Shown here one piece after another: positions 3,233-57,148 of a DNA stretch of 64,000 nucleotides; the stretch's first letter is position 1; every line of letters starts with the position of its first letter. Source of the DNA: an uncultured Bacteroidales bacterium (GTDB taxonomy: Bacteria; Bacteroidota; Bacteroidia; Bacteroidales; P3); the NCBI GenBank assembly GCA_905235855.1, contig CAJONE010000005.1:1550-65549 (forward strand), written 5' to 3'. A program made the translations under genes and the position numbers. The notes below the pieces were generated by a model. It searched no databases and was not told the origin of the DNA. It was given only the letters and a program-made list of their open reading frames with translations.

Positions 3233-3940
3233 ATGAAGTATAAGCGAGTGTTACTTAAATTGAGTGGAGAGTCGCTGATGGGTGAGCAGGGATATGGAAT
3301 ATCGCCCAAGATGCTCGAACAGTATGGAGCCGACATAAAGGCTGCGGTAGAGGCTGGACTGGAATTGGCGATTGTGATAGGCGGAGGAAATATTTTCCGC
3401 GGCCTCACCGGTGCGGCGCAGGGTTTTGACCGTGTGCAGGGCGACTACATGGGAATGCTGGCCACGCTTATAAACAGCATGGCTCTACAGTCGGAACTCG
3501 AACGTCAGGGATTGAGAACCGAGTTGCTTTCGGGCCTCCAGATAGAACCTATATGCAAGGCCATGTCGCGTCGCCGTGCCATTGAGGCTATGCGCGAGGG
3601 ATGCGTCGTAATCATTGGGGGTGGGAGCGGAAACCCGTTCTTCACCACCGACACGGCCTCTGCGCTGCGAGCGGTTGAAATCCAAGCCGACGCAATACTC
3701 AAAGGTACGCGTGTCGACGGCATTTATACCGCCGACCCCGAGAAGGATCATACGGCCACAAAATACCAATGTCTTTCGTATCAGGAAGCATTGTCAAGAC
3801 ATCTGAAGGTTATGGATCTCACGGCATTTGCACTTTGTGAGGAAAACAGTCTGCCGATATATGTGTTTGACATGAACAACCCCGGCAACCTTTTACGTGT
3901 GGTCAAGGGCGAACAGATTGGAACGGAAGTGTGCAAATAG
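3233..3940 (+). CDS. pyrH: UMP kinase
   Basis: MKYKRVLLKLSGESL..., GGGNIFRG and GSGNPFFTTDTASALRA motifs. The ATG at 3233 is preferred over the upstream ORF-track start. Confidence 0.95.
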   Translation: MKYKRVLLKLSGESLMGEQGYGISPKMLEQYGADIKAAVEAGLELAIVIGGGNIFRGLTGAAQGFDRVQGDYMGMLATLINSMALQSELERQGLRTELLSGLQIEPICKAMSRRRAIEAMREGCVVIIGGGSGNPFFTTDTASALRAVEIQADAILKGTRVDGIYTADPEKDHTATKYQCLSYQEALSRHLKVMDLTAFALCEENSLPIYVFDMNNPGNLLRVVKGEQIGTEVCK

Positions 3941-4037
3941 TCGATCCGCCAACCGCTGCGTTCAGGTTCACTTTAATGAGGGTGCTCGGCCAAAGACCGT
4001 TCAAAGAGTCAGTATTAAAATCTAAAAATCTTTTCAT

Positions 4038-4601
4038 ATGAATGAATTATCAAAAGCCTGTCTCGACGAGGCTCGCAACAGTATGCAGGGTGCCATCAAT
4101 TTCTTGAATAAGGAACTTGGCAAAATTCGTGCCAGCAAAGCCAATCCAGCCATGCTCGACGGTGTAAAGGTGGACTATTATGGTACACCGACAGAAATCA
4201 GTCAGGTGGCAAATATCAACACGCCTGACCCACGCAACATAATAATACAGCCGTGGGAGAAAACGCTTGTGGGTGCTATCAACAAGGCGATACTTGATGC
4301 CAATCTGGGTTTCACCCCACGCCATGAGGGCGACATATTGCGCATCGTGGTTCCGCCCATGACCGAGGAAAGGCGTAAAGAACTAACCAAATTGGCCAAG
4401 AGCGAGGTTGAAACTGGCAAAGTAAATGTGCGTAACGCTCGCCGCAATGTACTCGACAAAGTCAAAAAACTTAAAGACAAATCGGTTCCGGAGGATGAGG
4501 TGAAGCAAGTCGAGAAAGAACTACAGGATATCACCGACAAGTTCGTGGCAGAGTGCGACAAAATCTTTGCCACGAAAGAAAAAGAAATAATGACCGTATA
4601 G
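4038..4601 (+). CDS. frr: Ribosome recycling factor
   Basis: 187 aa with a typical RRF sequence (RASKANPAMLDGVKVDYYG, PPMTEERRKEL). Follows pyrH as in most bacteria. Confidence 0.95.
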   Translation: MNELSKACLDEARNSMQGAINFLNKELGKIRASKANPAMLDGVKVDYYGTPTEISQVANINTPDPRNIIIQPWEKTLVGAINKAILDANLGFTPRHEGDILRIVVPPMTEERRKELTKLAKSEVETGKVNVRNARRNVLDKVKKLKDKSVPEDEVKQVEKELQDITDKFVAECDKIFATKEKEIMTV

Positions 4602-4698
4602 GAAAAAGAGAGGAGTGCGTTGCATGGTGGACCGCTTTGGCTATACGGCTAAAGGAAATGTGTTGATATCTCGCTCCGCTTAACGCAGAACCATTTGA

Positions 4699-5595
4699 AT
4701 GTCCGATATGGTTGTATCGTCCGACACCCTGAATTCAGTGGCTATAGGCGCGGAAGGTGTGGAGCCGGTGACGGATGCTTTGTTATGCGGTTCCGCATAC
4801 GTGTCTGGTAAACCTGTAGCCCTCGTTGAGGAGGGTGAATATGTGCTGTTTTGTGAGGATTCTGTTTTCAAGTCACCCGATCAGTCCGCATTGCCTGAGC
4901 GGGTATCGCTTTTCAAAAACCATCTTTTAAAAGCAGAACACTGTGGTGAGGTTAAAAGGGTGGAGGATGGCGATGGCGGATATTTGTTCGGCGTGATGTT
5001 GATACTTACGGTTTTGTTGTTGGTATTTTGTCAGGTGCGCAAGATCGAGTTGAAGAAATGCGTGATGTCGGTTTTAAGTATGCGACACACAAACATAATG
5101 GTGAGAGAGGCGGGCTTGAAAAACGATTTGTCTCTGTGGCCGTTGCCGTTTATTTACTATTCGGTTCAGGGGGCATTGGGATATGTTGCCGCGACAAAAC
5201 TGTTTGGTGAAGAAATCTATGGTATGCTTGGTTTGCCGGTTCTGGTAGGCTCTTTTTTGGCGTTCAGTTTCTTGAAATATTTGCTAATTAAGCTTTTGGG
5301 TTTGGCATGCAATGGTGAAGAAGCCGTGAGCATGTATCTGATATCGGGAAGTTTTTTTCAGCAGATAGGCTCTGTACTTTTGATTCCTTTGACCATTGTT
5401 GGATATTATGTTGAGAAAAATGTGATATGGGTTGCCGGGGCAGTTGCCGCGCTGTTTTTTGTTTTGCGGTTGGGCCGGGGCTTGGCTATGGTTCTGTCGC
5501 GGTCGGCCGGGTCAAAATTGTATTTATTTTATTACCTTTGCATTGTTGAAATAATACCTATTTTGGTAATCGCAAAGGTGTTAATTGACTTTTAA
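4699..5595 (+). CDS. Multi-pass membrane protein (DUF4271-like)
   Basis: About 6 hydrophobic helices. Its position directly upstream of the HemD-like gene is the conserved Bacteroidetes arrangement as I recall it. Confidence 0.55.
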   Translation: MSDMVVSSDTLNSVAIGAEGVEPVTDALLCGSAYVSGKPVALVEEGEYVLFCEDSVFKSPDQSALPERVSLFKNHLLKAEHCGEVKRVEDGDGGYLFGVMLILTVLLLVFCQVRKIELKKCVMSVLSMRHTNIMVREAGLKNDLSLWPLPFIYYSVQGALGYVAATKLFGEEIYGMLGLPVLVGSFLAFSFLKYLLIKLLGLACNGEEAVSMYLISGSFFQQIGSVLLIPLTIVGYYVEKNVIWVAGAVAALFFVLRLGRGLAMVLSRSAGSKLYLFYYLCIVEIIPILVIAKVLIDF

Positions 5596-45098: not shown

Positions 45099-45692
45099 AT
45101 GAACAGTAACGAAATACCTGTCGAGCGGCATCCGCTGAAGCCGTTTCTGCCACGAGGGGCTCGTCTGCTTATGCTTGGCAGTTTTCCGCCGCCGCGCAAC
45201 CGCTGGCGCATGGATTTTTTCTACCCTAACCCGTCGAATCAAATGTGGAACATATTTGGACTTCTGTTTTATGGTGATGCAGAAAGATTTGTGGACAAGG
45301 AACGGCGTGGTTTTAGGCAGGCTGATATCCAGTCGATGCTTGCCGAACACGGAATAGCCGTTTACGACACGGCCACGGCCGTTTGCCGCATGAACGGCAA
45401 CGCTTCCGACAAAGGCCTGTGTATAGTCGAGAAAACCGATCTGTCAGCACTGTTGTCCGACTTGCCGTTGTGTGGCGATATAGTGTGCACTGGTCAGAAA
45501 AGCATCAGCGTGATTGTTGAGGATTATGGTGCGAGTGTCCCGCCGATGGGTATGGCCAGCGAGTTCATTTTGGGCAACCGGATTATGCGGCTTTGGCGGA
45601 TGCCCTCCTCGTCGAGAGCCTACCCGATGAGGCTGCACGAGAAAGCAGGCTACTATCGCCGCATGATGGTCGCGACTGGTATATTGAAGTGA
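45099..45692 (+). CDS. Uracil-DNA glycosylase superfamily protein (hypoxanthine/deoxyinosine glycosylase-like)
   Basis: LLMLGSFPPP...FFYPNPSNQMWNIFG motif, typical of the family-6-like UDG group. The internal ATG at 45099 is preferred. Confidence 0.55.
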   Translation: MNSNEIPVERHPLKPFLPRGARLLMLGSFPPPRNRWRMDFFYPNPSNQMWNIFGLLFYGDAERFVDKERRGFRQADIQSMLAEHGIAVYDTATAVCRMNGNASDKGLCIVEKTDLSALLSDLPLCGDIVCTGQKSISVIVEDYGASVPPMGMASEFILGNRIMRLWRMPSSSRAYPMRLHEKAGYYRRMMVATGILK

Positions 45693-45727: not shown

Positions 45728-46396
45728 ATGAATGTAGCTATCCTTTGCAACGGTGATTTTCCTACTGCACCCCAGCCGCTTAAAGCATTCGGCGAGGCCG
45801 ACCAAATAGTGTGCTGCGACGGTGCTTACGACACGTTTGTGGGCAAGGGTCTGGGTATATGTGCGCCCATCATCGTAATAGGCGATATGGATTCGATAGG
45901 AAACAGTGGCGCTGTGCGCTGCATACGGGTCGCCGAGCAGGACACCAACGACCAGACGAAGGCATTCCGTTATGTGCGCGACAAATGGCCGGAGGCCAAC
46001 ATAACAATCTTGGGGGCCACCGGCAAACGGGAGGACCACACACTGGGCAATATCTCTCTCCTTGCTGACTATTTTGAAAGTGTGTGCAATAGCGGGTTAC
46101 AGGACTTTCACCATGCCAGCGCCCCGGTTGTCTGTATGCTTACCGATTACGGACGCTTTACACCAGTGAACCGGCGGAGCGAGTTTGCCAGTTTCGCGCG
46201 ACAGCAGGTCTCGCTGTTTTCAATGACCCCCGGTTGTCTGATAACCACCGAGGGGCTGAAATATCCGCTCTGCCGCGAGCCTTTGCCCCGTTTGTGGCAG
46301 GGAACGCTCAATGCGTGCCTCGGCGACAGTTTTGCGATTATCCCGGAAAACGGCATTGTGATTGTATATCAAACCTATCAACCCAAGGAGGAATAG
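45728..46396 (+). CDS. Thiamine diphosphokinase
   Basis: TPK motifs CCDGAY, VIGDMDS, EQDTNDQTKA and GATGKREDHTLGNI. ATG at 45728. Confidence 0.78.
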   Translation: MNVAILCNGDFPTAPQPLKAFGEADQIVCCDGAYDTFVGKGLGICAPIIVIGDMDSIGNSGAVRCIRVAEQDTNDQTKAFRYVRDKWPEANITILGATGKREDHTLGNISLLADYFESVCNSGLQDFHHASAPVVCMLTDYGRFTPVNRRSEFASFARQQVSLFSMTPGCLITTEGLKYPLCREPLPRLWQGTLNACLGDSFAIIPENGIVIVYQTYQPKEE

Positions 46397-46661: not shown

Positions 46662-46669
46662 TAATTTTG
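46662..46669 (+). promoter_or_regulatory. Orphan Bacteroidetes -7 promoter box (TAATTTTG) with no downstream ORF
   Basis: TAnnTTTG match. The ~140 nt between it and the 46788-46819 hairpin contain no ATG-initiated ORF. Confidence 0.35.
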
Positions 46670-46787
46670 CAACGTCTTAAGAGGTCAGAAGAGGTTTTGT
46701 TGGTTTGCCTCTTCGCGCACAAGGGCTTTTTCCGAAACGCCGTGTGCTGAAAAAAAGGGCACTTAAGATATAGTTTGGTTTAAAAGC

Positions 46788-46819
46788 AAATACCGGGTGG
46801 TGAAAGCCGCCCGGTATTT
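46788..46819. terminator. Strong hairpin, probable bidirectional terminator
   Basis: AAATACCGGGTGG-TGAAAG-CCGCCCGGTATTT forms a 13 bp stem with one G-U pair. T-rich on the minus-strand side (TTTGCTTTTAAA) and TTTGTGGTTT on the plus side. Confidence 0.65.
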
Positions 46820-46854
46820 GTGGTTTAGGTCCGTGCCAGGTCGGTTACCTGGGA

Positions 46855-49800
46855 TCACCTGCAAACACCTGTGTTTAGGCGTAGATATTGCAGAGTCTGA
46901 AGAAAAAGAAACCGATATTCCTGACTCCACGGAGGGACTTGCGGAATGATTTTATTTTTGAGTTGAACTGTTCGGCGGATGCGTTGGTGGAGCGTTGGTT
47001 GTAGTAGTTGAACCAGCGTCGTCCGCTCGGCCATGCCCATGCCTCCGCGCCGGAACTGGTCCTCTATGCTCTCGTCCGTCTGCGCATCCTCTGTCGCATC
47101 TTCTTCGCCGTCGCGGAAACGGATGTCGTCGTTGGCAGGGTCGAATGTTCCGACGTTCTCGGTCGCGCTCTTTATCTGGTTGGGCGACATCGGTATGTAG
47201 TCGGTTGATAGCGGTGGTTCGCTGCCGTCTCTCAACTCTCCCGCGTAGCCGCCCTCGCGTATGTTACGCACAATCACCCCGTCGTAGCCGTTCTTTGCGG
47301 CGTTGTGCACCTCTGCCTCCATCTCCAGTGTGCCTGCATCTCCCCACGTCTTGCCGCCGAAGTCAATCACCAGAGGGTTGCGCATGTTCACATAGCATTC
47401 GTACACGTCCGGCACACGCTCCATGCCGATGCTCACAATCTCGTCTATTGGCGTTTCAATCCCGACATATTCCAGTATGTCGCCGAGTATTTCCCTGTCA
47501 AGGTGGTCTCCTGCTTCGAGTTTTTCTCTTATCACATCGGCAAAATTCCCCCAGCCGTACAGTTCATCAACTTCATAGTCTCCGTCTGTTGCAAACTCTG
47601 CCAACTGCCTTGCTGAAATGTCGTCAATTGCCACCTTTTGCCCGTTTACTTGCAGTATGCAATCAGCTTCGCGTTTGAACATGTCTGCGGTGCTGCGGTC
47701 GTTGCTGAAAAACGACGGCGTGTTGAATATTCGTATCTGCTCGCCACTCCTGCTGCCGTGGTACACCACCTGCGGCTCGCCGTTCTCGTCCACCACCTTT
47801 GATGAATTGGTTTTTGCCGACAGAATATCTTTTAGTATCTTTGCAACATCTCCAAGATGGGAGCCGGTATCAATCCCGGTCTTGAACTCCTCGTCTTGGA
47901 GTTCTTTTTGAAGCGCAACCTCATGCAGATAGAAACGGTGTGTACCGTCCGAATGTGTGACCTCGTTGGCGACAACAATACAGATATGGTTCTCCTCACC
48001 GATTTTCACGGGTGCTGCAAAAGTAACCGAGCCGTAGCCTCTGCCCTTCCAGTTTTCCTGTCGGTCTATTATACGCCCGCCCGATATGATTTCGGGTACT
48101 GCGGCAAATGCAGCAGCCTTTGTGCGTCCGAGTCCATGCGAGATACTGTCCTTGACGCTCCTTTCGTCAAGAAGTATTGTTCCGACACCAGCTCTTTCCA
48201 CTCTCCCGGCATACTTGGTGTCATAATATTCGGCGACACGCTTTGTTATGGGCATATCGTCTTTTTCAAATTCGTTCCCGGTCAGGCGCGCTACCACGTC
48301 GTCACCAAGCAGATAGGCTGCAATTGCCGCTTTCTCCCAATCGCCAAACATCGTCTTGAAAGCCTGTGTCCGTACCTGCTTCCACTGGCGGTCGTCCAGC
48401 TTGCTCGGTTTACCGTTGGGTGCTTTCTTCCATGTGCCGTCGGCTTTGGCTTTGCGCTCTATCTCCATCTCCTCGGCCCGAATGTCGGCCTGCCGTTCCG
48501 CCCGCGTCTTTCCGTCGCGTAGCGTTATGTCGTCCTCTGCTGCCATTCCCTCTCTCTGCTTCTCCACCTTCCAGTCTCTGCCGTAAGGTGCCTTGTCCGC
48601 ATACTCTCCCACGCCCAGCTCGGCCTGCATCGCTATGTCCTGCGCCTGTCTCACATATCCCCAGTTGCCCTCGGGCTCTGTCAGGTTCTTCCAGCTCCGC
48701 CACAGCACAAACCTCAACTCGTTCTCCGTGATGGTGTGGTTGCCGATCCAGTCGCCCATACCTATCTTCTTCACCATCCTTATGAACCAGTCTTTCACCA
48801 TCCTCCACCAGCTCTCATACTGTGGGTGTTCGAAGTTCTGCGTCTCCGCCATTTTCGCCATATACTCCTCTGTGGCGGTGCGGACGTTCCAGTTGTATTT
48901 CTTCGAAAGCGACGCTATCTCTCTCCTTATATCCTCCGTGCTGTGGGCATACACGTCGTCCAGGAACGTGTCGAAGTTCTCTCCAAACAACTCCCTCAGT
49001 CCGTGGTGTGCCACCCCTTCGTGGAGTATAGTATGGAACACATCGTCCATCCCCGTGTTGTTGTACATGATGACGTATATCTTCCCCGTCTTGGTGTCGT
49101 ACCACCCTTTGGCTCTCTTCTGGCGGTCGGTCAGGTTCATGCCTTCCAGCTCGTCGATGTCCAGCACCACGTTTACTCGGTCGCCCAGGTTCAGCTTCTC
49201 GGCAAACCTCTCGGCCGTCTTCTTCCGCTGGTTCCACACTCTCTCTATGTGGCGGTCGAACTGCGCCTTCGTATACCCTGCCTTCTTCGCCCTCTTCAAC
49301 GCCTCGTCGTATGGCGTGTAAGTCACCTGCGGCCCTTCGCCTATCCTCGTCACTACCGAAATATCGTTCTCGCTCTCGGCCTCTTGTGAATTATTTTTTG
49401 CAGTTTCGGGATAATTCAGTAATTTTGCAGCTGAAAACGAGTTGTTGCCTGAGCGGGGGAGTTCGCCATTATTGTCGTCTCCATGTGTCCCTTCCAACAA
49501 CTCGATTTCTGTTATTTCATAGCTGTAAGCTTTCGATTTTTCGTTTTCACTATTGTAGCGCTTTACCGTTGTTTTGACACGGTAGAGTTGGCCATCAATG
49601 TCTATTCCACCATACAAGCGTACAACGTCTTTCAAGTGTCTGTCGCCTTTTTTGTCATCATGAACCTCTCCAACAATGGAGTTTTCTATGATACTCGGCA
49701 TAACTTTCAGAGCAGAAAGGTGAACATCTTTGTTGTCGCTCTTACTGACAGCCTTTTCGCTTAGGTATTTGTCAACGGCTGTGCTGCTGATATTGACGTT

Positions 49801-52800
49801 TCCTATTTCTGGGTTCTCATATTCTCCGACAATGTTTTGCTTTGCCCACTTTCGCGCCTCCTTGAAGTCCTTGAAACCATGTTCCTTCTCCGCTCCAACA
49901 ATATTGACAGTTCTATTGTCATTCTCATCACCTCCCACCTTCTGGAACATTATCCCCTCTTTCCCTCTCACCGTCTCCAGCGTCACGTTCTTTCTGCTCT
50001 CCTCGTTGCCGTGCTCGTAGCTCACCACAGTAAGCCCTGCATCCTCCAGCGCCTGCCGCACATCCTCGCTCACGTTGTCCGGCACCACCGCCACCTCGAA
50101 CTCGTCCAGCATTACGGGACGTTTGAACTTCGTCTCGAAATACTTGGCCGGCAATGTCTTCACGTCTTCTATGAAGTTCATAAGTTGCGATGCCAGATCG
50201 CTGTCTTTGGCGATGTCGTAGCCGTACTCGCTGTTAAGGTATGCTATCGGGTCTCTCTTGGTCAACGCCTCCTGCAGTCTGCTCTCAGCGATGTCGTTGT
50301 TGATAAACGGGTTGCTGTCTATCTTCTTCATATCCGAAATCTGTCCCACGATGTCAAACAGCTCGTTGCTCAGTTCTTCGGTTCTCTGCTCCATCTGGCT
50401 CTTGCCGTCGCCGTCCTCTATGACACCTCTGTTCAGCAACTCTTTGTGTTTCCTAATGTCGCTCAGGCTTTTGAACCTCGGTAGCAGTATGGCTCTTGTC
50501 GGACCGAATCCTGTCTGGTCGTAGCTGTTCTGCTCTGCGTTTTTGTTCATGAGCTTGCTGGCGTTCTCCACCGTGTTCGGCACATACCTTCTGTTTCCGC
50601 TTGGTGTCCATCCTGCAAACAGCTTCTCGTCTATGTCCTCGTCGTTGAACAGCGTCTCTTTCCACTTGTAGTATTCTTCAGCCAGTCCTTCCTTGGCTAC
50701 CATATAGTCCGCATCGCTGTCCGTTCCGTACCAATCCACCTCTGGCTCATTGCGTCTCCGCTCGTCCATCTGCAGTCCGTGCAGGTAGTTGTCCGTGGCG
50801 TTGAAGTACATCCTGCCTTTCTCGTCAACGTACTTCGCACGCTTAGCGTCAATGAGCAACTGTTCGGCTTTCTTCCTCTTCTCCTCGTCGGCTATACCTG
50901 CGGTGGCTTTCTTCGCCTCGTTCTCTATGTCGCCCATTATGAGTTTTAGGAGCTCATCTTTCTGCTCCTGTGTCAGGTCGTCAAAAGAGACGTTCGAGAG
51001 GTTATCTGCTCCCGTAATCTTTCTTGCTGCTTCGTACTCCTCCGGTGTGCTGTCTATCCTCTTCATCTTCTTCTTCGGGTCATACCCTTTCTGCTTCAAG
51101 AATATGAACGCCAGGTTGTGTGTGTCGCCATCCACGAAACGCTCCAGCTGCTGCTTCAGATGTCTTTCCAGCTCTTTGTCTCCGTTCGCTGCCTCTTTCG
51201 CAATCTGATCGAAGTGTTTCTCTCCCTGCTTGGTCATCATCTTGGTGATGCTGGGATAAGTAGGAGTCCATGCGTCGCCTGCGTATGTGCCTGCATTCCG
51301 CCCTGTCCTGCTGTCTATCAGGCTTGCTTTCGGTATCAGGCTTATCTCGCCGTAGACATTCAGCGTGCCGTTCTTCGTGTCTATCACTGCCATGCTCGGG
51401 TTGGCGAACCCGCCCTGCTTCAATGCCTTCTTCAGCTTCTCCTCGCTTATGTTGTGTACGCCCATCAGCGTCTTCTCCTCCGTCGCTCTCGGGTTGTACC
51501 CTCTTGCCAGGTCGCCCATCACCATGTCGGCGAAGTCGTCGGCTGTCAGGTTTTCTACCCCCTCCACCTTGCCTGCGAAGAGGTCACGTGCCATGTTCCA
51601 GAACTTGCTCAGTATCTCTCTCAGCTTGTGGAACATCGTGGCCACCTTCGCCTTCTCGAATACATCGTGGGTCTTCGACATCTCCTCTCTCATGTCCGCC
51701 TCCAGACGTTCACGCCCTCGCTTGCCGCTGTAGTGGGCAAACACCTCATCCGTCAGCTCGTCCTCGTTCTTCAGCTCCGGGTAGCGTCCTCTCACGTACT
51801 CCCACAGCCGTCCGTCCTCCACGCCTTTCATCTCCTCGGTCAGCTGCGCCCATGCCGTCGGGTTGGCTTTCCGCAATCCCTGCGCCCACAGGTGCGTGTA
51901 CTCGTGTATCGGTGTGTCGGGTGTCGCCACTCGCGGGTCTATGTATATCTCGCCGTTCAAAGTGTACCCCAGCACCTCCCCGTCCTCCGTCTTGAAGAAC
52001 ATCGGCTGTCCTTCCATCACGCTCTCCTTCATCTCGGGTGTCACGTCCACGCTCCACATCGTGAGGCCGTTGTCGCCGATATTCGGCAACTCCACCTCCC
52101 CGGTTTTCACTCCCCACTTCTTGCCGTACTTGTCCATGAACCTCGGCAGTATCTGGTCGTAGAACCCTTTCATCCCCTCGCCTCCGATATGCATGCCCTC
52201 GCCTTCGATGGTTTCCCACTCGGTATTCATTATTTTCTCTGCAAGAGACTTGCCAAACACCTCTGAAACGTGTTTGCCATTGGCATTTTCCATAAGTCCA
52301 TTGGCTTGTGAAATAATGCCATCTTCCGAAATGTACATGGCAGACTGACCACGCTCTGGGAATTTTAGATTTACCATTTTCACATCTTTCCCATCCCGTT
52401 TTACTGTCTGTATGTCTATCTTCTCTACGGCTTTACTCAGGTCGTACCTCTCCGCCTGCTGCTCGCCCTTAGTCCAAGCCACCTTGTCGTAGCCGTTCTC
52501 GGCGGCATACCGCAGCATGCGCTTCATGCACACCTCGTGCCAGTTCTTGTCAAACGGCGCGTCGGGAACATCACCTGCATTTCTTCCATTCACTCGTTCC
52601 CACTCCATTTGTGCCTCTTCTGCATCATTGAGTGCTTTAACCAGTTTTTCGTGTTTGCGCCATTCGTCTTCGCTTCTTTCTAACGGGTGCTTGATACCTT
52701 TCTTTTCGAGTTCATCATTGTAATCCTGAAGTTCGTCCCAAGCATCTTGACTTGCTTTTATCAAACGTTGCAATTCCTTCGGACGATATCCCTTCTCTCT

Positions 52801-55800
52801 TCCCTCCTGATGCCTATTGCTCTGTATCTCGTCGATGACCAGTACGCGCTTGCCGTCCTTGTCCGTCGTCTCTCCGAACCTCACCCACGCCACGGCGCGG
52901 CCCTCGCCTGCGTCGCCGAAGTGTATCTCGTCGCTCTCTTTCCACGGCTCGATGGTCGGCACGGTCAAGGCTATCTCGCTCCTGTTCTCCAAACCCTCGG
53001 TGGTGTATTCCAGGCGAGTGGAGTTGATGTATCTGTAACCATCTATAGATTCAAGGTAGTCTTCAAAACCATCATTGATTTCTATTCTGCCGCCTGTTCC
53101 GTCTAAAGCCATATTGAAGTCGTCACCATAACGCTCTATCATCTCGTTCCATGCGCCCTCCCAGTTCCCGTCATGTTCCTTTATCAATTCATCGTATTCT
53201 TGTTGCAAGGCAGTTAGACCGCTCTCCGAATAATTCACCTCTTCAATCTGAAGGGCATTCTCACGGATATAGTCCAGCACCTCCTGCTTGGTGAGGCTCT
53301 TGCCTTTCTGCTCGTTGAGCCAGTCGCTTAGTCCCGTCCACTTGTCCTCGCCAGCTTTCAGTCCGCCGTTCTTGGTGAGCATGGCCTTCCACTGCTCCGC
53401 CGTGGCTTTCTCTTGCTTTATACCCTCCACGGCTCTCATCGCATTCGAATAGAACACAGGCTTCATCTCCGGCACATACTCGCCACCCTCGGCCTTGTGG
53501 AATCGTATCTTGTCGACTATCTTGAGGTTGTTCTCGTCGAAGACGACGTAGTTCTTCGCCCCGTCGCTCCGGCCACCGCTCATATACTCCGCAGGGTACT
53601 TGATGCCCACGTAGCCCATCGAGTGCAGGAACTCCGAAGCAGCCTTGTCGCTGCCGGTTATAGCGGTAATGATGTTGTGGTAGACAGCACCGCCCTGTCT
53701 GTTGGTAGCCTCCCCAGCGTTCAGGTACTCTCTGTCGAGCCATTTGTCTATACTCACCTCGTCCGACTTCGGATACCTCTCCTTGGCTATCGGCATTAAG
53801 CGCTCTTTTATCTCATTCCACCTCTCCGTTTCAGGCAGGTTGGTGTAGTCAAAGTAGTTGCTCCCGTCGTCGTCGGGTATCTCCACCGTGTAGAGGATTT
53901 TGTCATAATCATTCTCATTAAAACGTCTTTTGTCTTCTTCCCTAAGTTTTGTTAGTTTCTCCTCTGCCTTTTCGTAATTCTCTTTTGCTTGTTCTTTATC
54001 TTCTTCGTTGGCGTGTTCGTAATCCCATAAAGCATTTAATAAGTCTTTATTTGCGGCTGTGATTTTTTTAGATAGTTGTCCTCTACTTGTGCTCTCCGCA
54101 TACATCCTCCCAATCCCTTCCACCTCCGTAACGTAGGTGCCATATCCGTAAGCCTGCGCCCCTTCGCCCTCGCCCATGTGCGAGTGGTCGAATGCCTCAA
54201 AGTCAGCACCGCTGCCGTGGTAGGCTCGCATCTCGCGCAAATTGCTCTGCGGCAGGTCGTGTTCCACTGGGAAATAGCTGTAATTCCCTCCCACGTCCTT
54301 GGTGTGCAGCTTGCAGTCCGCATCTATCACGCTGATGTTTCCGGCTGCGTCGCGCACGATGTTGCTTTTCTGCAGGTCGGCCACTATTATCTCGCCGTTG
54401 CTGAAGGCTGAGTTCTCCTTGTTTATGGGCTTGAATCCAAGTCCGGCCATGTACTCCACGCGCTCCTGCTCGGTCAAAGGTTTGCTGTTGGAAAAATTGA
54501 CAATGGGCTGTTCCAGCACACGGACAAAACCTTTTCCAAAGTCTCCATACCCAACTATCTTATATGCAGAGTTGGGAAACACATAGTTGAACAGGGGAAT
54601 GTTGTCAAGGTCGGGTCTGAAACGCTTGCCTTCGGGCTTGCCGTGCGAGAGTTTTATGACGTGCGTACCGTCCTTGGCGGCGTACACGTCGCTGTCTGTG
54701 CCGCTGCCGATAGGTTCTGTGTTGTCGGTGAAATCTGTGAGGTCGGTGTGCCAGTTGCCTGTAGCTTTAGCCCACCGCTCTAACAGCTCTTTCTTCTTTG
54801 CCTCGATAGCTCTTCTTCCTGACGGACGAGTTCGTTCATTCGGTCTGACTGTGCTTTCAGAAACTCGTGTGAAAAGTGCATCGAGAGCGTTCTCTCGCGC
54901 TCTTTCATACATTCTTCGTTCCACTTCCTGTGGAAGTCGTTCAGATAGCCGTCGTCCGTACTTGTTGTCTGGTGTGACATCATCTATGAAGTCTCTAATT
55001 TCTTGCAAAGATACATCATTATATTCACCTGACAAAATAATATTGTACACCTCTTTTGCATCCTCTCTCCGTTTCTCTTCTCTGGCGAGGCGTTTTCTGC
55101 GTGCTTCAGCAACGCTTTTCCCTGTCACAAAAGCCGTGGCTTCGTCTATTACCCTGTTCTGCTCTTCCCTTTCTTTGCGCCTCTCGCTCATCTCGCCCCC
55201 GCTCATCAGTTTCACATTCTCTCTGTACTTGTCCAGCATCTCCTGGCCTTTCTTCGTCACGTAGTGCGTCGGCACGCCCGTGGCTTTCAGCACCTCCACC
55301 ACGCCTTTCGTCAGCTCCTTCTGCTCCTTCGTCGGCTTCGCCGTTTCTCCCTCCGACTTCTGACTCCGCACGTTGGCTCCATACAGGCCCTCTCCCAATC
55401 TCCGCAAGTCGTCTCGGCTCTTCAAACCTTCGCTCTCGTACCACTGTCGCAACGTCTCGTCGGGCACAACACCAGACAGCGACACCAGGTATTCGTCAAC
55501 CTGATGCCCTGCGTTCTTCTTGTAGTTGCCATTGTAGGCAAAGTCCTCGAAGGCTCCGCTGCCCTCGTTCTCTTTCAACCCTTCGACGATACGGCGCACG
55601 TTGGCTCCGATTTCCTCCGGGGTCATCGTCTCGCTGACGGGCGTAAGGCCGAAAGGTTTTTCATAGCCTGTGCCCTCGGCAAGGATACGCTGCTTGCGCT
55701 CCTCCTGGAGTCTTTGCTCCCGGCTCTCCGCTACTGCTCCTCTTCGGTCTCCGTCGGCTTCGTTTCCTCGCTGTCCTCCATCACCTTCTTGTGTGCCTTG

Positions 55801-56193
55801 AACAGCAGATCGAGTTTCCGCGCTTTCAGGTCTTGTTTCGGTTGCGACTGCTGCTCCGCTGGCTGCTTCGGTGTTGTCTGATTGTCCATTTCTTTTCTTT
55901 TTATAATATTCTACTATGTCTTTCTTTATATCCTCTTTCGTCCTCGGCTCGAACAAGGCAAGTCCTCCACTGTTCGCTTCAGCCTCCGCACTCTTGTTAT
56001 ATAACGTCAACACATCTCTAAAATTATCCACTCCGCTGCTCATCTCGTCGGCCATCAGCACCACAGCCGGCTCAAACCTGTCTTCTACCAGCCCTTCTAT
56101 CAGGTTGCCCTGTCGCTTGAACTCATCCCATTTCATCTTGCTCCGTCTGGCTTCGTACAGCAGGTCTATCGTCGTGTTTATCTCTTCTGTCAA
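46855..56193 (-). CDS. Giant (3112 codon) polyvalent-type multi-enzyme protein
   Basis: Single open frame. By-eye modules are a kinase-like domain (aa ~490-632), a YHGS ART-like module (aa ~655-900), HEYTH zincin (aa 1430-1434), HEGVAHH zincin (aa 2391-2397), two related ~135 aa modules (aa ~2095-2235 and ~2630-2765) and a second YHGS/PNQIKS ART-like module (aa ~2795-3030). TTG start. The last ~60 codons are an out-of-frame transposase remnant. Confidence 0.8.
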   Translation of the reverse strand: MTEEINTTIDLLYEARRSKMKWDEFKRQGNLIEGLVEDRFEPAVVLMADEMSSGVDNFRDVLTLYNKSAEAEANSGGLALFEPRTKEDIKKDIVEYYKKKRNGQSDNTEAASGAAVATETRPESAETRSAVQGTQEGDGGQRGNEADGDRRGAVAESREQRLQEERKQRILAEGTGYEKPFGLTPVSETMTPEEIGANVRRIVEGLKENEGSGAFEDFAYNGNYKKNAGHQVDEYLVSLSGVVPDETLRQWYESEGLKSRDDLRRLGEGLYGANVRSQKSEGETAKPTKEQKELTKGVVEVLKATGVPTHYVTKKGQEMLDKYRENVKLMSGGEMSERRKEREEQNRVIDEATAFVTGKSVAEARRKRLAREEKRREDAKEVYNIILSGEYNDVSLQEIRDFIDDVTPDNKYGRRLSERLPQEVERRMYERARENALDALFTRVSESTVRPNERTRPSGRRAIEAKKKELLERWAKATGNWHTDLTDFTDNTEPIGSGTDSDVYAAKDGTHVIKLSHGKPEGKRFRPDLDNIPLFNYVFPNSAYKIVGYGDFGKGFVRVLEQPIVNFSNSKPLTEQERVEYMAGLGFKPINKENSAFSNGEIIVADLQKSNIVRDAAGNISVIDADCKLHTKDVGGNYSYFPVEHDLPQSNLREMRAYHGSGADFEAFDHSHMGEGEGAQAYGYGTYVTEVEGIGRMYAESTSRGQLSKKITAANKDLLNALWDYEHANEEDKEQAKENYEKAEEKLTKLREEDKRRFNENDYDKILYTVEIPDDDGSNYFDYTNLPETERWNEIKERLMPIAKERYPKSDEVSIDKWLDREYLNAGEATNRQGGAVYHNIITAITGSDKAASEFLHSMGYVGIKYPAEYMSGGRSDGAKNYVVFDENNLKIVDKIRFHKAEGGEYVPEMKPVFYSNAMRAVEGIKQEKATAEQWKAMLTKNGGLKAGEDKWTGLSDWLNEQKGKSLTKQEVLDYIRENALQIEEVNYSESGLTALQQEYDELIKEHDGNWEGAWNEMIERYGDDFNMALDGTGGRIEINDGFEDYLESIDGYRYINSTRLEYTTEGLENRSEIALTVPTIEPWKESDEIHFGDAGEGRAVAWVRFGETTDKDGKRVLVIDEIQSNRHQEGREKGYRPKELQRLIKASQDAWDELQDYNDELEKKGIKHPLERSEDEWRKHEKLVKALNDAEEAQMEWERVNGRNAGDVPDAPFDKNWHEVCMKRMLRYAAENGYDKVAWTKGEQQAERYDLSKAVEKIDIQTVKRDGKDVKMVNLKFPERGQSAMYISEDGIISQANGLMENANGKHVSEVFGKSLAEKIMNTEWETIEGEGMHIGGEGMKGFYDQILPRFMDKYGKKWGVKTGEVELPNIGDNGLTMWSVDVTPEMKESVMEGQPMFFKTEDGEVLGYTLNGEIYIDPRVATPDTPIHEYTHLWAQGLRKANPTAWAQLTEEMKGVEDGRLWEYVRGRYPELKNEDELTDEVFAHYSGKRGRERLEADMREEMSKTHDVFEKAKVATMFHKLREILSKFWNMARDLFAGKVEGVENLTADDFADMVMGDLARGYNPRATEEKTLMGVHNISEEKLKKALKQGGFANPSMAVIDTKNGTLNVYGEISLIPKASLIDSRTGRNAGTYAGDAWTPTYPSITKMMTKQGEKHFDQIAKEAANGDKELERHLKQQLERFVDGDTHNLAFIFLKQKGYDPKKKMKRIDSTPEEYEAARKITGADNLSNVSFDDLTQEQKDELLKLIMGDIENEAKKATAGIADEEKRKKAEQLLIDAKRAKYVDEKGRMYFNATDNYLHGLQMDERRRNEPEVDWYGTDSDADYMVAKEGLAEEYYKWKETLFNDEDIDEKLFAGWTPSGNRRYVPNTVENASKLMNKNAEQNSYDQTGFGPTRAILLPRFKSLSDIRKHKELLNRGVIEDGDGKSQMEQRTEELSNELFDIVGQISDMKKIDSNPFINNDIAESRLQEALTKRDPIAYLNSEYGYDIAKDSDLASQLMNFIEDVKTLPAKYFETKFKRPVMLDEFEVAVVPDNVSEDVRQALEDAGLTVVSYEHGNEESRKNVTLETVRGKEGIMFQKVGGDENDNRTVNIVGAEKEHGFKDFKEARKWAKQNIVGEYENPEIGNVNISSTAVDKYLSEKAVSKSDNKDVHLSALKVMPSIIENSIVGEVHDDKKGDRHLKDVVRLYGGIDIDGQLYRVKTTVKRYNSENEKSKAYSYEITEIELLEGTHGDDNNGELPRSGNNSFSAAKLLNYPETAKNNSQEAESENDISVVTRIGEGPQVTYTPYDEALKRAKKAGYTKAQFDRHIERVWNQRKKTAERFAEKLNLGDRVNVVLDIDELEGMNLTDRQKRAKGWYDTKTGKIYVIMYNNTGMDDVFHTILHEGVAHHGLRELFGENFDTFLDDVYAHSTEDIRREIASLSKKYNWNVRTATEEYMAKMAETQNFEHPQYESWWRMVKDWFIRMVKKIGMGDWIGNHTITENELRFVLWRSWKNLTEPEGNWGYVRQAQDIAMQAELGVGEYADKAPYGRDWKVEKQREGMAAEDDITLRDGKTRAERQADIRAEEMEIERKAKADGTWKKAPNGKPSKLDDRQWKQVRTQAFKTMFGDWEKAAIAAYLLGDDVVARLTGNEFEKDDMPITKRVAEYYDTKYAGRVERAGVGTILLDERSVKDSISHGLGRTKAAAFAAVPEIISGGRIIDRQENWKGRGYGSVTFAAPVKIGEENHICIVVANEVTHSDGTHRFYLHEVALQKELQDEEFKTGIDTGSHLGDVAKILKDILSAKTNSSKVVDENGEPQVVYHGSRSGEQIRIFNTPSFFSNDRSTADMFKREADCILQVNGQKVAIDDISARQLAEFATDGDYEVDELYGWGNFADVIREKLEAGDHLDREILGDILEYVGIETPIDEIVSIGMERVPDVYECYVNMRNPLVIDFGGKTWGDAGTLEMEAEVHNAAKNGYDGVIVRNIREGGYAGELRDGSEPPLSTDYIPMSPNQIKSATENVGTFDPANDDIRFRDGEEDATEDAQTDESIEDQFRRGGMGMAERTTLVQLLQPTLHQRIRRTVQLKNKIIPQVPPWSQEYRFLFLQTLQYLRLNTGVCR
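46875..47021 (-). pseudogene. 3'-terminal remnant of an ISL3-like transposase gene
   Basis: The minus-strand frame +1 relative to the giant ORF translates to RRWFNYYNQRSTNASAEQFNSKIKSFRKSLRGVRNIGFFFFRLCNIYA*. This fits the TNxxxExxNxKIKxxxR...G(V/F)...F..R(L/I) C-terminal signature of ISL3-family transposases. That frame is closed by a stop ~11 codons upstream of RRWF. Confidence 0.55.
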
Positions 56194-56302
56194 CGCATAG
56201 TCTCCAAGCCTGCGGTTCTCTGCTATCTGCGGACATCATGTTTTGTCGTTAAGGCAATAAAACACGAGAGAATACGTTGTTTAAACAAACCGTTGCAACA
56301 AT

Positions 56303-57148
56303 ATGGCGTACAAAAACCACACACTTTCCGCTACTTTGCCAGACGACTATACACGTGTGTTTCTCATAGAGCTGAAAGCTGCCATCCGCGAGGGGTCGCC
56401 TTTCTTTGCCCGCTATGGGGGATACGGGATGGAGCCTCTTCTTCGAAATGGGTTGGAAAGAGTGTGCGTGGTGCAAATCGAACAGGGGCTTAAACCCCAA
56501 CGGTATGATATATTAGCGATTGAGAGAGAGTCGAAGTGTGTATTTCGCCGTTTTTTGTGCTGTAAGGGAGAAAAATTTGTGGTTATGGGAGACTCCTGCC
56601 GCAGTGAGGAACTGGTCGAACAGGCGGCGGTGTTAGGCCGTGTGAGCGAGGTGAAACGCGGTGACGGCAAGTCCCTAATGTGCGGTGGCGATGTATGGAT
56701 GAAGCACTCGGCCAAGTCTGTAAAAAAACGGCAACGGATAAACTGGCTAAAGAACCTTTTCAGTGGAAAACGGATGAAATATTGGGCTGCCGCCTACTTT
56801 GTGATTTTGCTGCTCTCGATGTGGATGCCGTTGGGCGGGTTGCCGCTGCCCGACAATTTTATTCTCGGCCTGCGACCCGACCATTTTTTTCACGCCTCGA
56901 TCTATTGTTTTTGCGCTTTTTTTCTGACTAAATTGATGGGCATGCGAAACGCATGCATGTTACCGCATTGTCTGACTGTTTGGCTTGGGAGTATGGCAAT
57001 CGGTGTTGTCACAGAATTCGGGCAGAAACTGCTGCCATATCGCTCGTTCGATATAAACGATTTGATTGCAAACGCTATCGGAGCCACGTTGGGGTGGCTT
57101 GCGGTTGAAATGTTGTGCAAAACGGACACTTCTATTGCAAAAACGTAA
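56303..57148 (+). CDS. Fusion of an S24/S26-peptidase-like beta-barrel (catalytic Ser replaced) with a VanZ-like membrane domain
   Basis: The N-terminal part has GYGMEPLLRNG, RYDILAI and VVMGDS (the S24/S26 pattern is GxSMxP). The C-terminal 4-TM domain with EFGQKLLPYRSFDINDLIANAIGATLG is VanZ-like. Confidence 0.55.
   Translation: MAYKNHTLSATLPDDYTRVFLIELKAAIREGSPFFARYGGYGMEPLLRNGLERVCVVQIEQGLKPQRYDILAIERESKCVFRRFLCCKGEKFVVMGDSCRSEELVEQAAVLGRVSEVKRGDGKSLMCGGDVWMKHSAKSVKKRQRINWLKNLFSGKRMKYWAAAYFVILLLSMWMPLGGLPLPDNFILGLRPDHFFHASIYCFCAFFLTKLMGMRNACMLPHCLTVWLGSMAIGVVTEFGQKLLPYRSFDINDLIANAIGATLGWLAVEMLCKTDTSIAKT

What the first reader, a model, noticed from the sequence alone, without database searches (positions are those of the whole stretch)
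46855..47045. The 3' end of the giant ORF is a chimera reading out of frame through an ISL3-like transposase remnant
After the acidic stretch ...EEDATEDAQTDESIEDQFRRGG, the ORF continues for ~60 codons (MGMAERTTLVQLLQPTLHQRIRR...LNTGVCR*) with a composition unlike the rest of the protein. The same DNA in the +1 frame gives RRWFNYYNQRSTNASAEQFNSKIKSFRKSLRGVRNIGFFFFRLCNIYA*, a recognisable ISL3-family transposase C-terminus with its own stop at 46875-46877. So an IS once inserted into or next to the gene and was later almost entirely deleted, leaving ~150 bp. The giant protein's native C-terminus is either lost or replaced by a fortuitous tail. This marks one edge of the island and shows the locus has been rearranged.
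Basis: seen in the sequence. Interest (0 to 1): 0.65.

Follow-up and report, generated by a model that had tools for sequence, protein, structure and literature searches.

The report
IS scar on truncated phage gene
The last ~50 codons of a 9.3-kb open reading frame read out of frame through the final 160 bases of a dead insertion sequence, and the 'giant gene' is itself an internal fragment of a larger phage gene stranded between ordinary chromosomal genes, which is ordinary genome decay rather than a new system.

Summary
Window 46852-47011 (minus strand) is the terminal 160 bp of an ISAon1-family (ISL3-superfamily) insertion sequence. It holds the last 45 transposase codons (NCBIfam NF049917 E 1.2e-18; Pfam PF01610 E 1.7e-6), the transposase stop (46877-46875) and a complete 26-bp right inverted repeat (46877-46852). 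The 3112-codon ORF reads through it in another frame and stops at a TGA inside the repeat. No homologue shares this tail. The junction is base-identical in two other metagenome assemblies.

The interpretation needs widening in three ways.
- The intact IS end lies 25 bp from a conserved chromosomal sRNA-like element. Insertion into the gene is therefore not shown. What is seen is a deletion-type junction between the IS interior and the gene.
- The ORF is also cut at its 5' end. Homology to residues ~1300-1700 of ~5000-aa relatives runs past the nominal start codon up to the in-frame stop.
- The 'island' is only this gene fragment, lying between thiamine pyrophosphokinase and VanZ-like core genes. 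Relatives of the gene sit in phage head modules.

The locus is best read as a prophage relic carrying an IS scar. Interest is low.

The parts
46852..47011 (-). Terminal 160 bp of an ISAon1-family (ISL3-superfamily) insertion sequence, equivalent to about positions 1260-1419 of a ~1419-bp element
   Evidence: blastn to intact copies L027, L031, L028 and L029 begins at 47011 and ends at 46850-46852. Pfam and NCBIfam hits.
46878..47011 (-). Last ~45 codons of the transposase, (F)NYYNQRSTNASAEQFNSKIKSFRKSLRGVRNIGFFFFRLCNIYA, read one base out of phase with the giant ORF
   Evidence: It is 73-80% identical to the C-terminal fragments P0121-P0125.
46852..46877 (-). Complete right inverted repeat TAAACACAGGTGTTTGCAGGTGATCC. 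It holds the transposase stop TAA (46877-46875) and the giant ORF's stop TGA (46857-46855).
   Evidence: 26-bp inverted repeats of intact copies: L027 82-107/1475-1500, L029 162-187/1557-1582, L031 186-211/1580-1605. Alignment. There is no second copy in the window.
47012..47026 (-). 3' junction zone between the polyvalent-gene DNA and the IS interior. The exact breakpoint is not resolvable. A possible ACGACG match to the IS lies here.
   Evidence: Alignment A4.
47027..56235 (-). Internal ~9.2-kb fragment of a phage-type polyvalent protein gene carrying Kinase-PolyVal, PBECR5, LPD3 and ART-PolyVal domains
   Evidence: Pfam scan, mosaic homology to 3000-5800-aa relatives, and relatives located in phage head modules.
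56194..56238 (-). 5' junction. The in-frame stop TGA (56238-56236) is followed by CPQIAENRRLGDYA. These codons lie upstream of the nominal TTG start (56193) but are still homologous to internal residues of relatives.
   Evidence: and blastx.
46662..46828 (+). Conserved chromosomal non-coding element, a candidate sRNA with a TAATTTTG box and a terminator hairpin. It shows that DNA up to about 46830 is native chromosome.
   Evidence: 74-75% identical to L015 and L016 downstream of their thiamine pyrophosphokinase genes. Consensus fold. No Rfam family.
45728..46396 (+). Thiamine pyrophosphokinase, a core flank gene and last gene of the arginase-TonB receptor-PnuC-TPK block
56303..57148 (+). VanZ-like core gene, divergent from the fragment and 64 bp from the 5' junction stop codon

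Best explanation
The 3112-codon ORF is not a complete gene with a swapped tail. It is an internal fragment of a much larger (about 4700-5800 aa) virion-type polyvalent protein gene of a prophage, and everything else of that prophage has been lost.

At the 3' end, a deletion-type illegitimate junction joins the gene, shortly after its ART-PolyVal module, to position ~1260 of an ISAon1-family insertion sequence. That IS sat in the chromosome, or at the very edge of the integrated element, 25 bp downstream of a conserved sRNA-like gene. About 1260 bp of the IS and the 3' part of the gene went with the deletion.

Translation, if any occurs, runs on by chance for ~51 codons in a non-transposase frame and stops at a TGA inside the IS inverted repeat.

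At the 5' end, a second junction cuts the gene in the middle of a conserved module, 64 bp from the VanZ-like gene. The annotated TTG and ATG starts are therefore fortuitous.

Shown: the identity and limits of the IS remnant, the lack of a conserved tail, both truncations, and the core-gene flanks.

Inferred: that the losses were deletions, their order, the prophage origin, and that the fragment is a non-functional relic.
For: - IS identity and limits. Intact relatives have the two ORFs NF049916 and NF049917 and 26-bp inverted repeats, and the window keeps only the last 160 bp.
- The junction is 100% identical in independent assemblies L009/L012 and L010. L011 breaks inside the repeat.
- The tail is not conserved and the ART module is internal in long relatives.
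- The 90% cluster holds only this sequence, a one-SNP variant and a chimeric 1401-aa call.
- 5' truncation: residues 1-140 align from residue 1 to positions ~1300-1700 of 4650-5384-aa relatives. ENRRLGDYAL is conserved upstream of the start codon. Relatives stay conserved further upstream, including a ddrB-ParB domain that the window lacks.
- Flanks are core genes. The arginase-TonB-PnuC-TPK-sRNA block is syntenic in L015 and L016.
- Three of four relatives examined lie beside P22_portal or SU10_MCP genes.
Against: - The 9.3-kb frame has no stop or frameshift, and its GC3 (0.65) matches the host. The event is therefore either recent or the fragment is kept by selection, and no expression data exist.
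- No parental IS (>95% identical) and no intact parental gene were found, so the breakpoints and the mechanism (microhomology, order of events) are not demonstrated.
- Polyvalent proteins are modular and shuffled, so 'internal in relatives' is weaker evidence than a collinear orthologue would be.
- No empty site from a close relative was available.
- One relative (P0275) lies next to TatC/TatA and type I restriction genes rather than phage head genes.
Confidence: 0.8

Rival explanations
1. An IS inserted into, or just after, an otherwise complete giant gene and was then almost wholly deleted. The protein is full-length apart from a replaced C-terminus, and the remnant marks the edge of a larger island.
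For: The IS remnant and the fortuitous tail are real. The 23-25 bp between the sRNA terminator and the inverted repeat are too short to say whether they are chromosome or element DNA. An IS lying inside the integrated element cannot therefore be excluded.
Against: - The intact outer repeat faces conserved chromosomal DNA, and the broken inner end faces the gene.
- The 5' end is cut mid-module.
- No island genes exist on either side.
- A simple insertion followed by internal deletion would leave both IS ends, and there is no left repeat in the window.
Confidence: 0.1
2. The doubly truncated fragment is expressed and retained by the host as a domesticated multi-enzyme protein (kinase, PBECR5 nuclease, ADP-ribosyltransferase), with the IS-derived tail tolerated.
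For: There is an uninterrupted 9.3-kb frame. The sequence is identical or nearly so in at least four samples, with only one substitution, D1482E. Its composition matches the host.
Against: - Near-identity also covers the flanks, so it reflects one clone and not selection.
- There is no exact Bacteroidetes -7 box (TAnnTTTG) on its strand in the 5' flank.
- The start codon is fortuitous and the first module is cut.
- No other lineage carries it.
Confidence: 0.07
3. Assembly artefact: a short-read assembler joined the gene to an IS end through a repeat.
For: All sources are short-read metagenome assemblies. One contig (L011) ends inside the remnant at 46899. Another (L013) is demonstrably chimeric elsewhere in the gene.
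Against: - The same junction is base-for-base identical in contigs from separate samples and assemblers, namely the window's 66-kb source contig, ERZ1667847 (k87) and ERZ28573638.
- The remnant is only 160 bp, with unique sequence on both sides.
- IS homology stops cleanly at an internal IS position, which a repeat-induced misjoin would not produce.
Confidence: 0.03

Closest known systems
ISAon1-family insertion sequences (NCBIfam NF049916 and NF049917; Pfam DDE_Tnp_ISL3), e.g. the annotated copy on the Segatella copri DSM 18205 replicon NZ_CP085933.1 (L026 1162-2664) and the metagenomic copies L027, L029 and L031
   Same: The last 45 transposase codons are shared. The stop codon is embedded in the right inverted repeat. 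The 26-bp terminal repeat has the sequence type GGxTCAxCTGCA...CTGTGTTTA.
   Different: Only 160 of ~1420 bp are present. The upstream ORF, the catalytic region and the left repeat are missing. DNA identity to the nearest sampled copy is only 82%, so it cannot transpose.
Polyvalent proteins of phages and conjugative elements (Iyer et al. 2017, PMC5512222)
   Same: It has a multi-domain architecture with Kinase-PolyVal, PBECR5, LPD3 and ART-PolyVal. Its module relationships to 3000-5800-aa proteins are mosaic. Relatives are encoded in phage morphogenesis modules.
   Different: Here the gene stands alone between core chromosomal genes. It lacks both native termini, and no mobile-element genes surround it.
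Cryptic prophage remnants and IS-associated gene truncation (pseudogene formation)
   Same: A fragment of mobile-element DNA is bounded by illegitimate junctions, one of them involving an IS. The reading frame is extended by chance into foreign DNA.
   Different: The surviving open frame is unusually long (9.3 kb) and comes from a single gene. The IS itself is truncated internally, rather than causing a precise IS-end deletion.
Other stand-alone 3' remnants of the same IS family (P0121-P0124; loci L001-L008)
   Same: They are short C-terminal transposase fragments of 56-94 aa with the right repeat retained.
   Different: Those lie between genes of a tyrosine-recombinase/DUF8237 locus and are not fused to an upstream ORF.

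Membership tests
ISAon1-family IS (ISL3 superfamily) | Transposase matching NF049917 / PF01610 | tested here: inconclusive
   Only the last 45 of 327 profile positions match (E 1.2e-18, 67 bits against a cut-off of 250). Pfam gives 28.4 bits, above its cut-off of 23. This is a fragment of a family member, not a transposase.
ISAon1-family IS (ISL3 superfamily) | Upstream ORF (NF049916, N-terminal region protein) | tested here: not met
   It is present in L027 and L026. It is absent from the window, because IS homology starts only at 47011.
ISAon1-family IS (ISL3 superfamily) | Pair of ~26-bp terminal inverted repeats | tested here: not met
   The right repeat is intact at 46852-46877. There is no left repeat anywhere in the 64 kb, even allowing 3 mismatches.
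ISAon1-family IS (ISL3 superfamily) | Target-site duplication flanking the element | not testable with these tools
   Only one end survives.
Polyvalent protein (Iyer et al. 2017) | Several unrelated effector and enzyme domains in one polypeptide, including PolyVal-specific domains | tested here: met
   Kinase-PolyVal E 3.8e-38, LPD3 1.8e-25, PBECR5 7.7e-21 and ART-PolyVal 1.1e-19.
Polyvalent protein (Iyer et al. 2017) | Encoded within a phage, prophage, plasmid or conjugative element | tested here: not met
   The window flanks are TPK, a PnuC-type transporter, VanZ-like, Na/Ala symporter and similar core genes. Relatives are beside portal and capsid genes.
Polyvalent protein (Iyer et al. 2017) | Complete gene with native start and end | tested here: not met
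   5' homology runs through the start codon to a stop. The 3' end runs into the IS.

The most novel reading that the evidence does not exclude
A host bacterium has kept, and expresses, a 3100-residue internal slab of a phage polyvalent protein (kinase, PBECR5 nuclease and ADP-ribosyltransferase) as a chromosomal gene of its own, for example for defence or exclusion. An IS inverted repeat supplies its stop codon. This would be a case of domestication of a phage counter-defence polyprotein.
Probability: 0.06. Interest if true: 0.55.

Novelty: new member of a known kind. Interest (0 to 1): 0.2.

Why it matters
Its main value is for annotation. A 3093-3112-aa 'hypothetical protein' in public rumen MAG data is in fact a doubly truncated relic with an IS-derived tail, so it should not be used as a reference architecture for polyvalent proteins. 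It also documents an ISAon1-family scar at a synteny breakpoint, next to a conserved and undescribed sRNA-like gene. If the fragment turned out to be expressed and maintained, it would be an example of host capture of a phage multi-effector protein.

Tried and rejected
- Exact look-up of the 3112-aa product found nothing. The gene caller's version starts at M20 (P0270).
- Searches with the 60-aa remnant returned only short fragments, so intact ISs had to be fetched from plasmids and from metagenome contigs.
- IMG/VR scans found nothing with the IS remnant or with either end of the gene.
- The INPHARED phage collection gave only one short 54-residue match.
- The GTDB scan with thiamine pyrophosphokinase did not give an empty site. 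The nearest genomes are only 62-67% identical and have other genes after the sRNA-like element.
- Rfam has no family for the conserved non-coding element.
- No paper mentions ISAon1.
- I considered that the tail might be native or a domesticated transposase piece. I rejected this because no homologue aligns into it.
- I considered that the 1401-aa variant in L013 showed an alternative gene end. I rejected it as a chimeric contig joined to AT-rich, eukaryote-like DNA.

Full report
**1. Observation**

The ORF 46855..56193 (minus strand, 3112 codons) is real. Its last codons read ...DDIRFRDGEEDATEDAQTDESIEDQFRRGGMGMAERTTLVQLLQPTLHQRIRR...LNTGVCR*. The next frame gives RRWFNYYNQRSTNASAEQFNSKIKSFRKSLRGVRNIGFFFFRLCNIYA* with a TAA at 46877-46875.

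That peptide matches the extreme C-terminus of Pfam DDE_Tnp_ISL3 (positions 201-239 of 240, E 1.7e-6, above the gathering score). It also matches the NCBIfam 'ISAon1 family transposase' model (positions 283-327 of 327, E 1.2e-18). The ORF-frame tail matches nothing. The tail has 2% acidic residues against 18.7% in the rest of the protein.

**2. Anatomy of the IS remnant**

Intact relatives were obtained from a Segatella copri replicon (L026) and from metagenome contigs (L027, L029, L031). They are ~1.42-1.5 kb long. Each has two ORFs (NF049916 upstream protein and NF049917 transposase) and 26-27-bp imperfect inverted repeats, and the transposase stop codon lies inside the right repeat.

DNA similarity of the window to these copies (77-82%) begins abruptly at 47011 and ends at 46850-46852. 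The remnant is therefore the last 160 bp of the IS. The right repeat TAAACACAGGTGTTTGCAGGTGATCC (46877-46852) is complete, and the giant ORF's TGA (46857-46855) lies within it. No left repeat and no other IS piece occurs in the 64 kb. Only about 51 codons of the tail are IS-derived. A possible ACGACG match leaves the breakpoint somewhere in 47012-47026.

**3. Not an artefact of one assembly**

Contigs from other samples are 99.99-100% identical across the junction. L009/L012 span TPK to VanZ, and L010 spans TPK into the gene. L011 stops inside the remnant at 46899, as expected for a repeat.

**4. What the giant ORF is**

Pfam finds Kinase-PolyVal, PBECR5, LPD3 and ART-PolyVal domains. This makes it a polyvalent protein in the sense of Iyer et al. 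2017 (PMC5512222).

An exhaustive HMMER search with the last 330 residues found 4944 homologues. Among the best 150, none aligns beyond query residue 278, and the tail starts at residue 270. In all 14 hits of >=1000 aa that match the whole ART module, 257-2706 more residues follow, with a median of 1432. What follows the N.DIRF motif differs from protein to protein.

Full-length searches show mosaic, non-collinear relatives of 1776-5400 aa. The 90% cluster holds only this sequence, a one-SNP variant (D1482E) and a chimeric call. The tail is therefore not native, and the native 3' part is missing.

**5. The 5' end is truncated too**

Residues 1-140 align, starting from residue 1, to positions ~1300-1700 of many 4650-5384-aa relatives. 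The 14 codons upstream of the nominal TTG (CPQIAENRRLGDYA) are still homologous to the relatives' MPSIVENRRLGDYA. Similarity ends exactly at the in-frame TGA at 56238-56236.

Relatives that are divergent from one another remain alignable further upstream, and they carry a ddrB-ParB domain there that the window lacks. Only 64 bp separate the junction from the start of the divergent VanZ-like gene. There is no exact Bacteroidetes -7 box on the fragment's strand in that flank.

**6. Surroundings**

Both flanks are core genes.
- On the 3' side (lower coordinates): arginase-like, TonB-dependent receptor, PnuC-type transporter and thiamine pyrophosphokinase.
- On the 5' side (higher coordinates): VanZ-like, Na/Ala symporter, DNA-alkylation repair, epimerase and 2-oxoacid:ferredoxin oxidoreductase genes.

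There is no island beyond the fragment. The nearest genomes are rumen Bacteroidales MAGs, with TPK 62-67% identical. They keep the arginase-TonB-PnuC-TPK block.

Downstream of TPK, those MAGs also keep a ~165-bp non-coding element that is 74-75% identical to window 46662-46826. It has a TAATTTTG box (46662-46669) and a terminator hairpin with compensatory changes, and it has no Rfam match. DNA up to about 46830 is therefore native chromosome. The IS repeat starts 25 bp later.

In the relatives, the element is followed by M23 peptidase-TrmD-PyrH-Frr. In the window, PyrH and Frr lie at 3233-4598. The remnant thus sits at a synteny breakpoint.

**7. Origin of the gene**

The closest relatives lie in phage morphogenesis modules.
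- P0271 lies between a P22-type portal gene and an SU10-type capsid gene.
- P0329 lies near an SU10 capsid gene.
- P0273 lies next to a portal gene.
- P0275 lies at the edge of chromosomal genes.

The fragment's GC (0.525) and GC3 (0.65) match the host's.

**8. Explanation**

A prophage carrying a polyvalent virion gene of roughly 5000 aa was reduced to one 9.2-kb internal fragment. One junction fuses the gene, just after its ART module, to an internal point of an ISAon1-type IS. The outer end of that IS had been 25 bp from the sRNA-like gene. The other junction cuts a conserved module next to VanZ. The ORF's start and its last ~51 codons are accidents of the junctions.

The steps that are shown and those that are inferred are listed under the best explanation. 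They are scored in their own section.

**9. Verdict**

It is an instance of a well-known process: IS-associated truncation and prophage decay. Interest is low. The only unusual points are the length of the surviving frame and the double truncation, which current annotation hides.

Noticed in passing
window 46662-46828 (+): Candidate ~155-nt sRNA gene with a Bacteroidetes-type TAATTTTG box and a terminator hairpin (46788-46819). It is conserved downstream of thiamine pyrophosphokinase in two other rumen Bacteroidales MAGs (L015 12522-12692, L016 11199-11370). Six base pairs show compensatory changes, from only 3 sequences. No Rfam family matches.
   Followed up: partly
L013 1-871 (joins window 51969); L010 ends at window 51921; L014 starts at window 51934: Three independent assemblies break or diverge within 50 bp inside the giant ORF. 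In L013 the join leads into AT-rich DNA encoding a leucine-rich-repeat plus ubiquitin-like protein that looks eukaryotic, perhaps from a rumen protist. This is most likely a chimeric contig. The reason for the shared break point is unknown.
   Followed up: partly
L001 5001-5195 and L002-L008: Another stand-alone 3' remnant of the same IS family (a 56-aa ORF plus the right repeat) recurs in at least 8 contigs. It lies between genes of a tyrosine-recombinase/DUF8237 locus and is preceded by a short tandem duplication (AATACCAGTCTATC...). Short 3'-end scars of this IS family therefore seem common.
   Followed up: no
window 45171-45692 (+): A 173-aa ORF with no Pfam match lies between the PnuC-type transporter and thiamine pyrophosphokinase genes. 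It is absent in L015 and L016, where those two genes are 2-11 bp apart.
   Followed up: no
window 3233-5583 (+) versus L015 14622-16793: PyrH, Frr and the following membrane-protein gene directly follow the TPK-sRNA-M23-TrmD block in relatives. In the window they lie 42 kb upstream of TPK, and the M23 and TrmD genes are not in the window. This is a large rearrangement relative to the nearest sampled genomes.
   Followed up: partly
L044 3-14765: In a relative, the polyvalent gene is called as three consecutive overlapping large ORFs of 1323, 1776 and 1844 aa next to a P22-type portal gene. This suggests frameshifts or programmed breaks in such giant genes.
   Followed up: no
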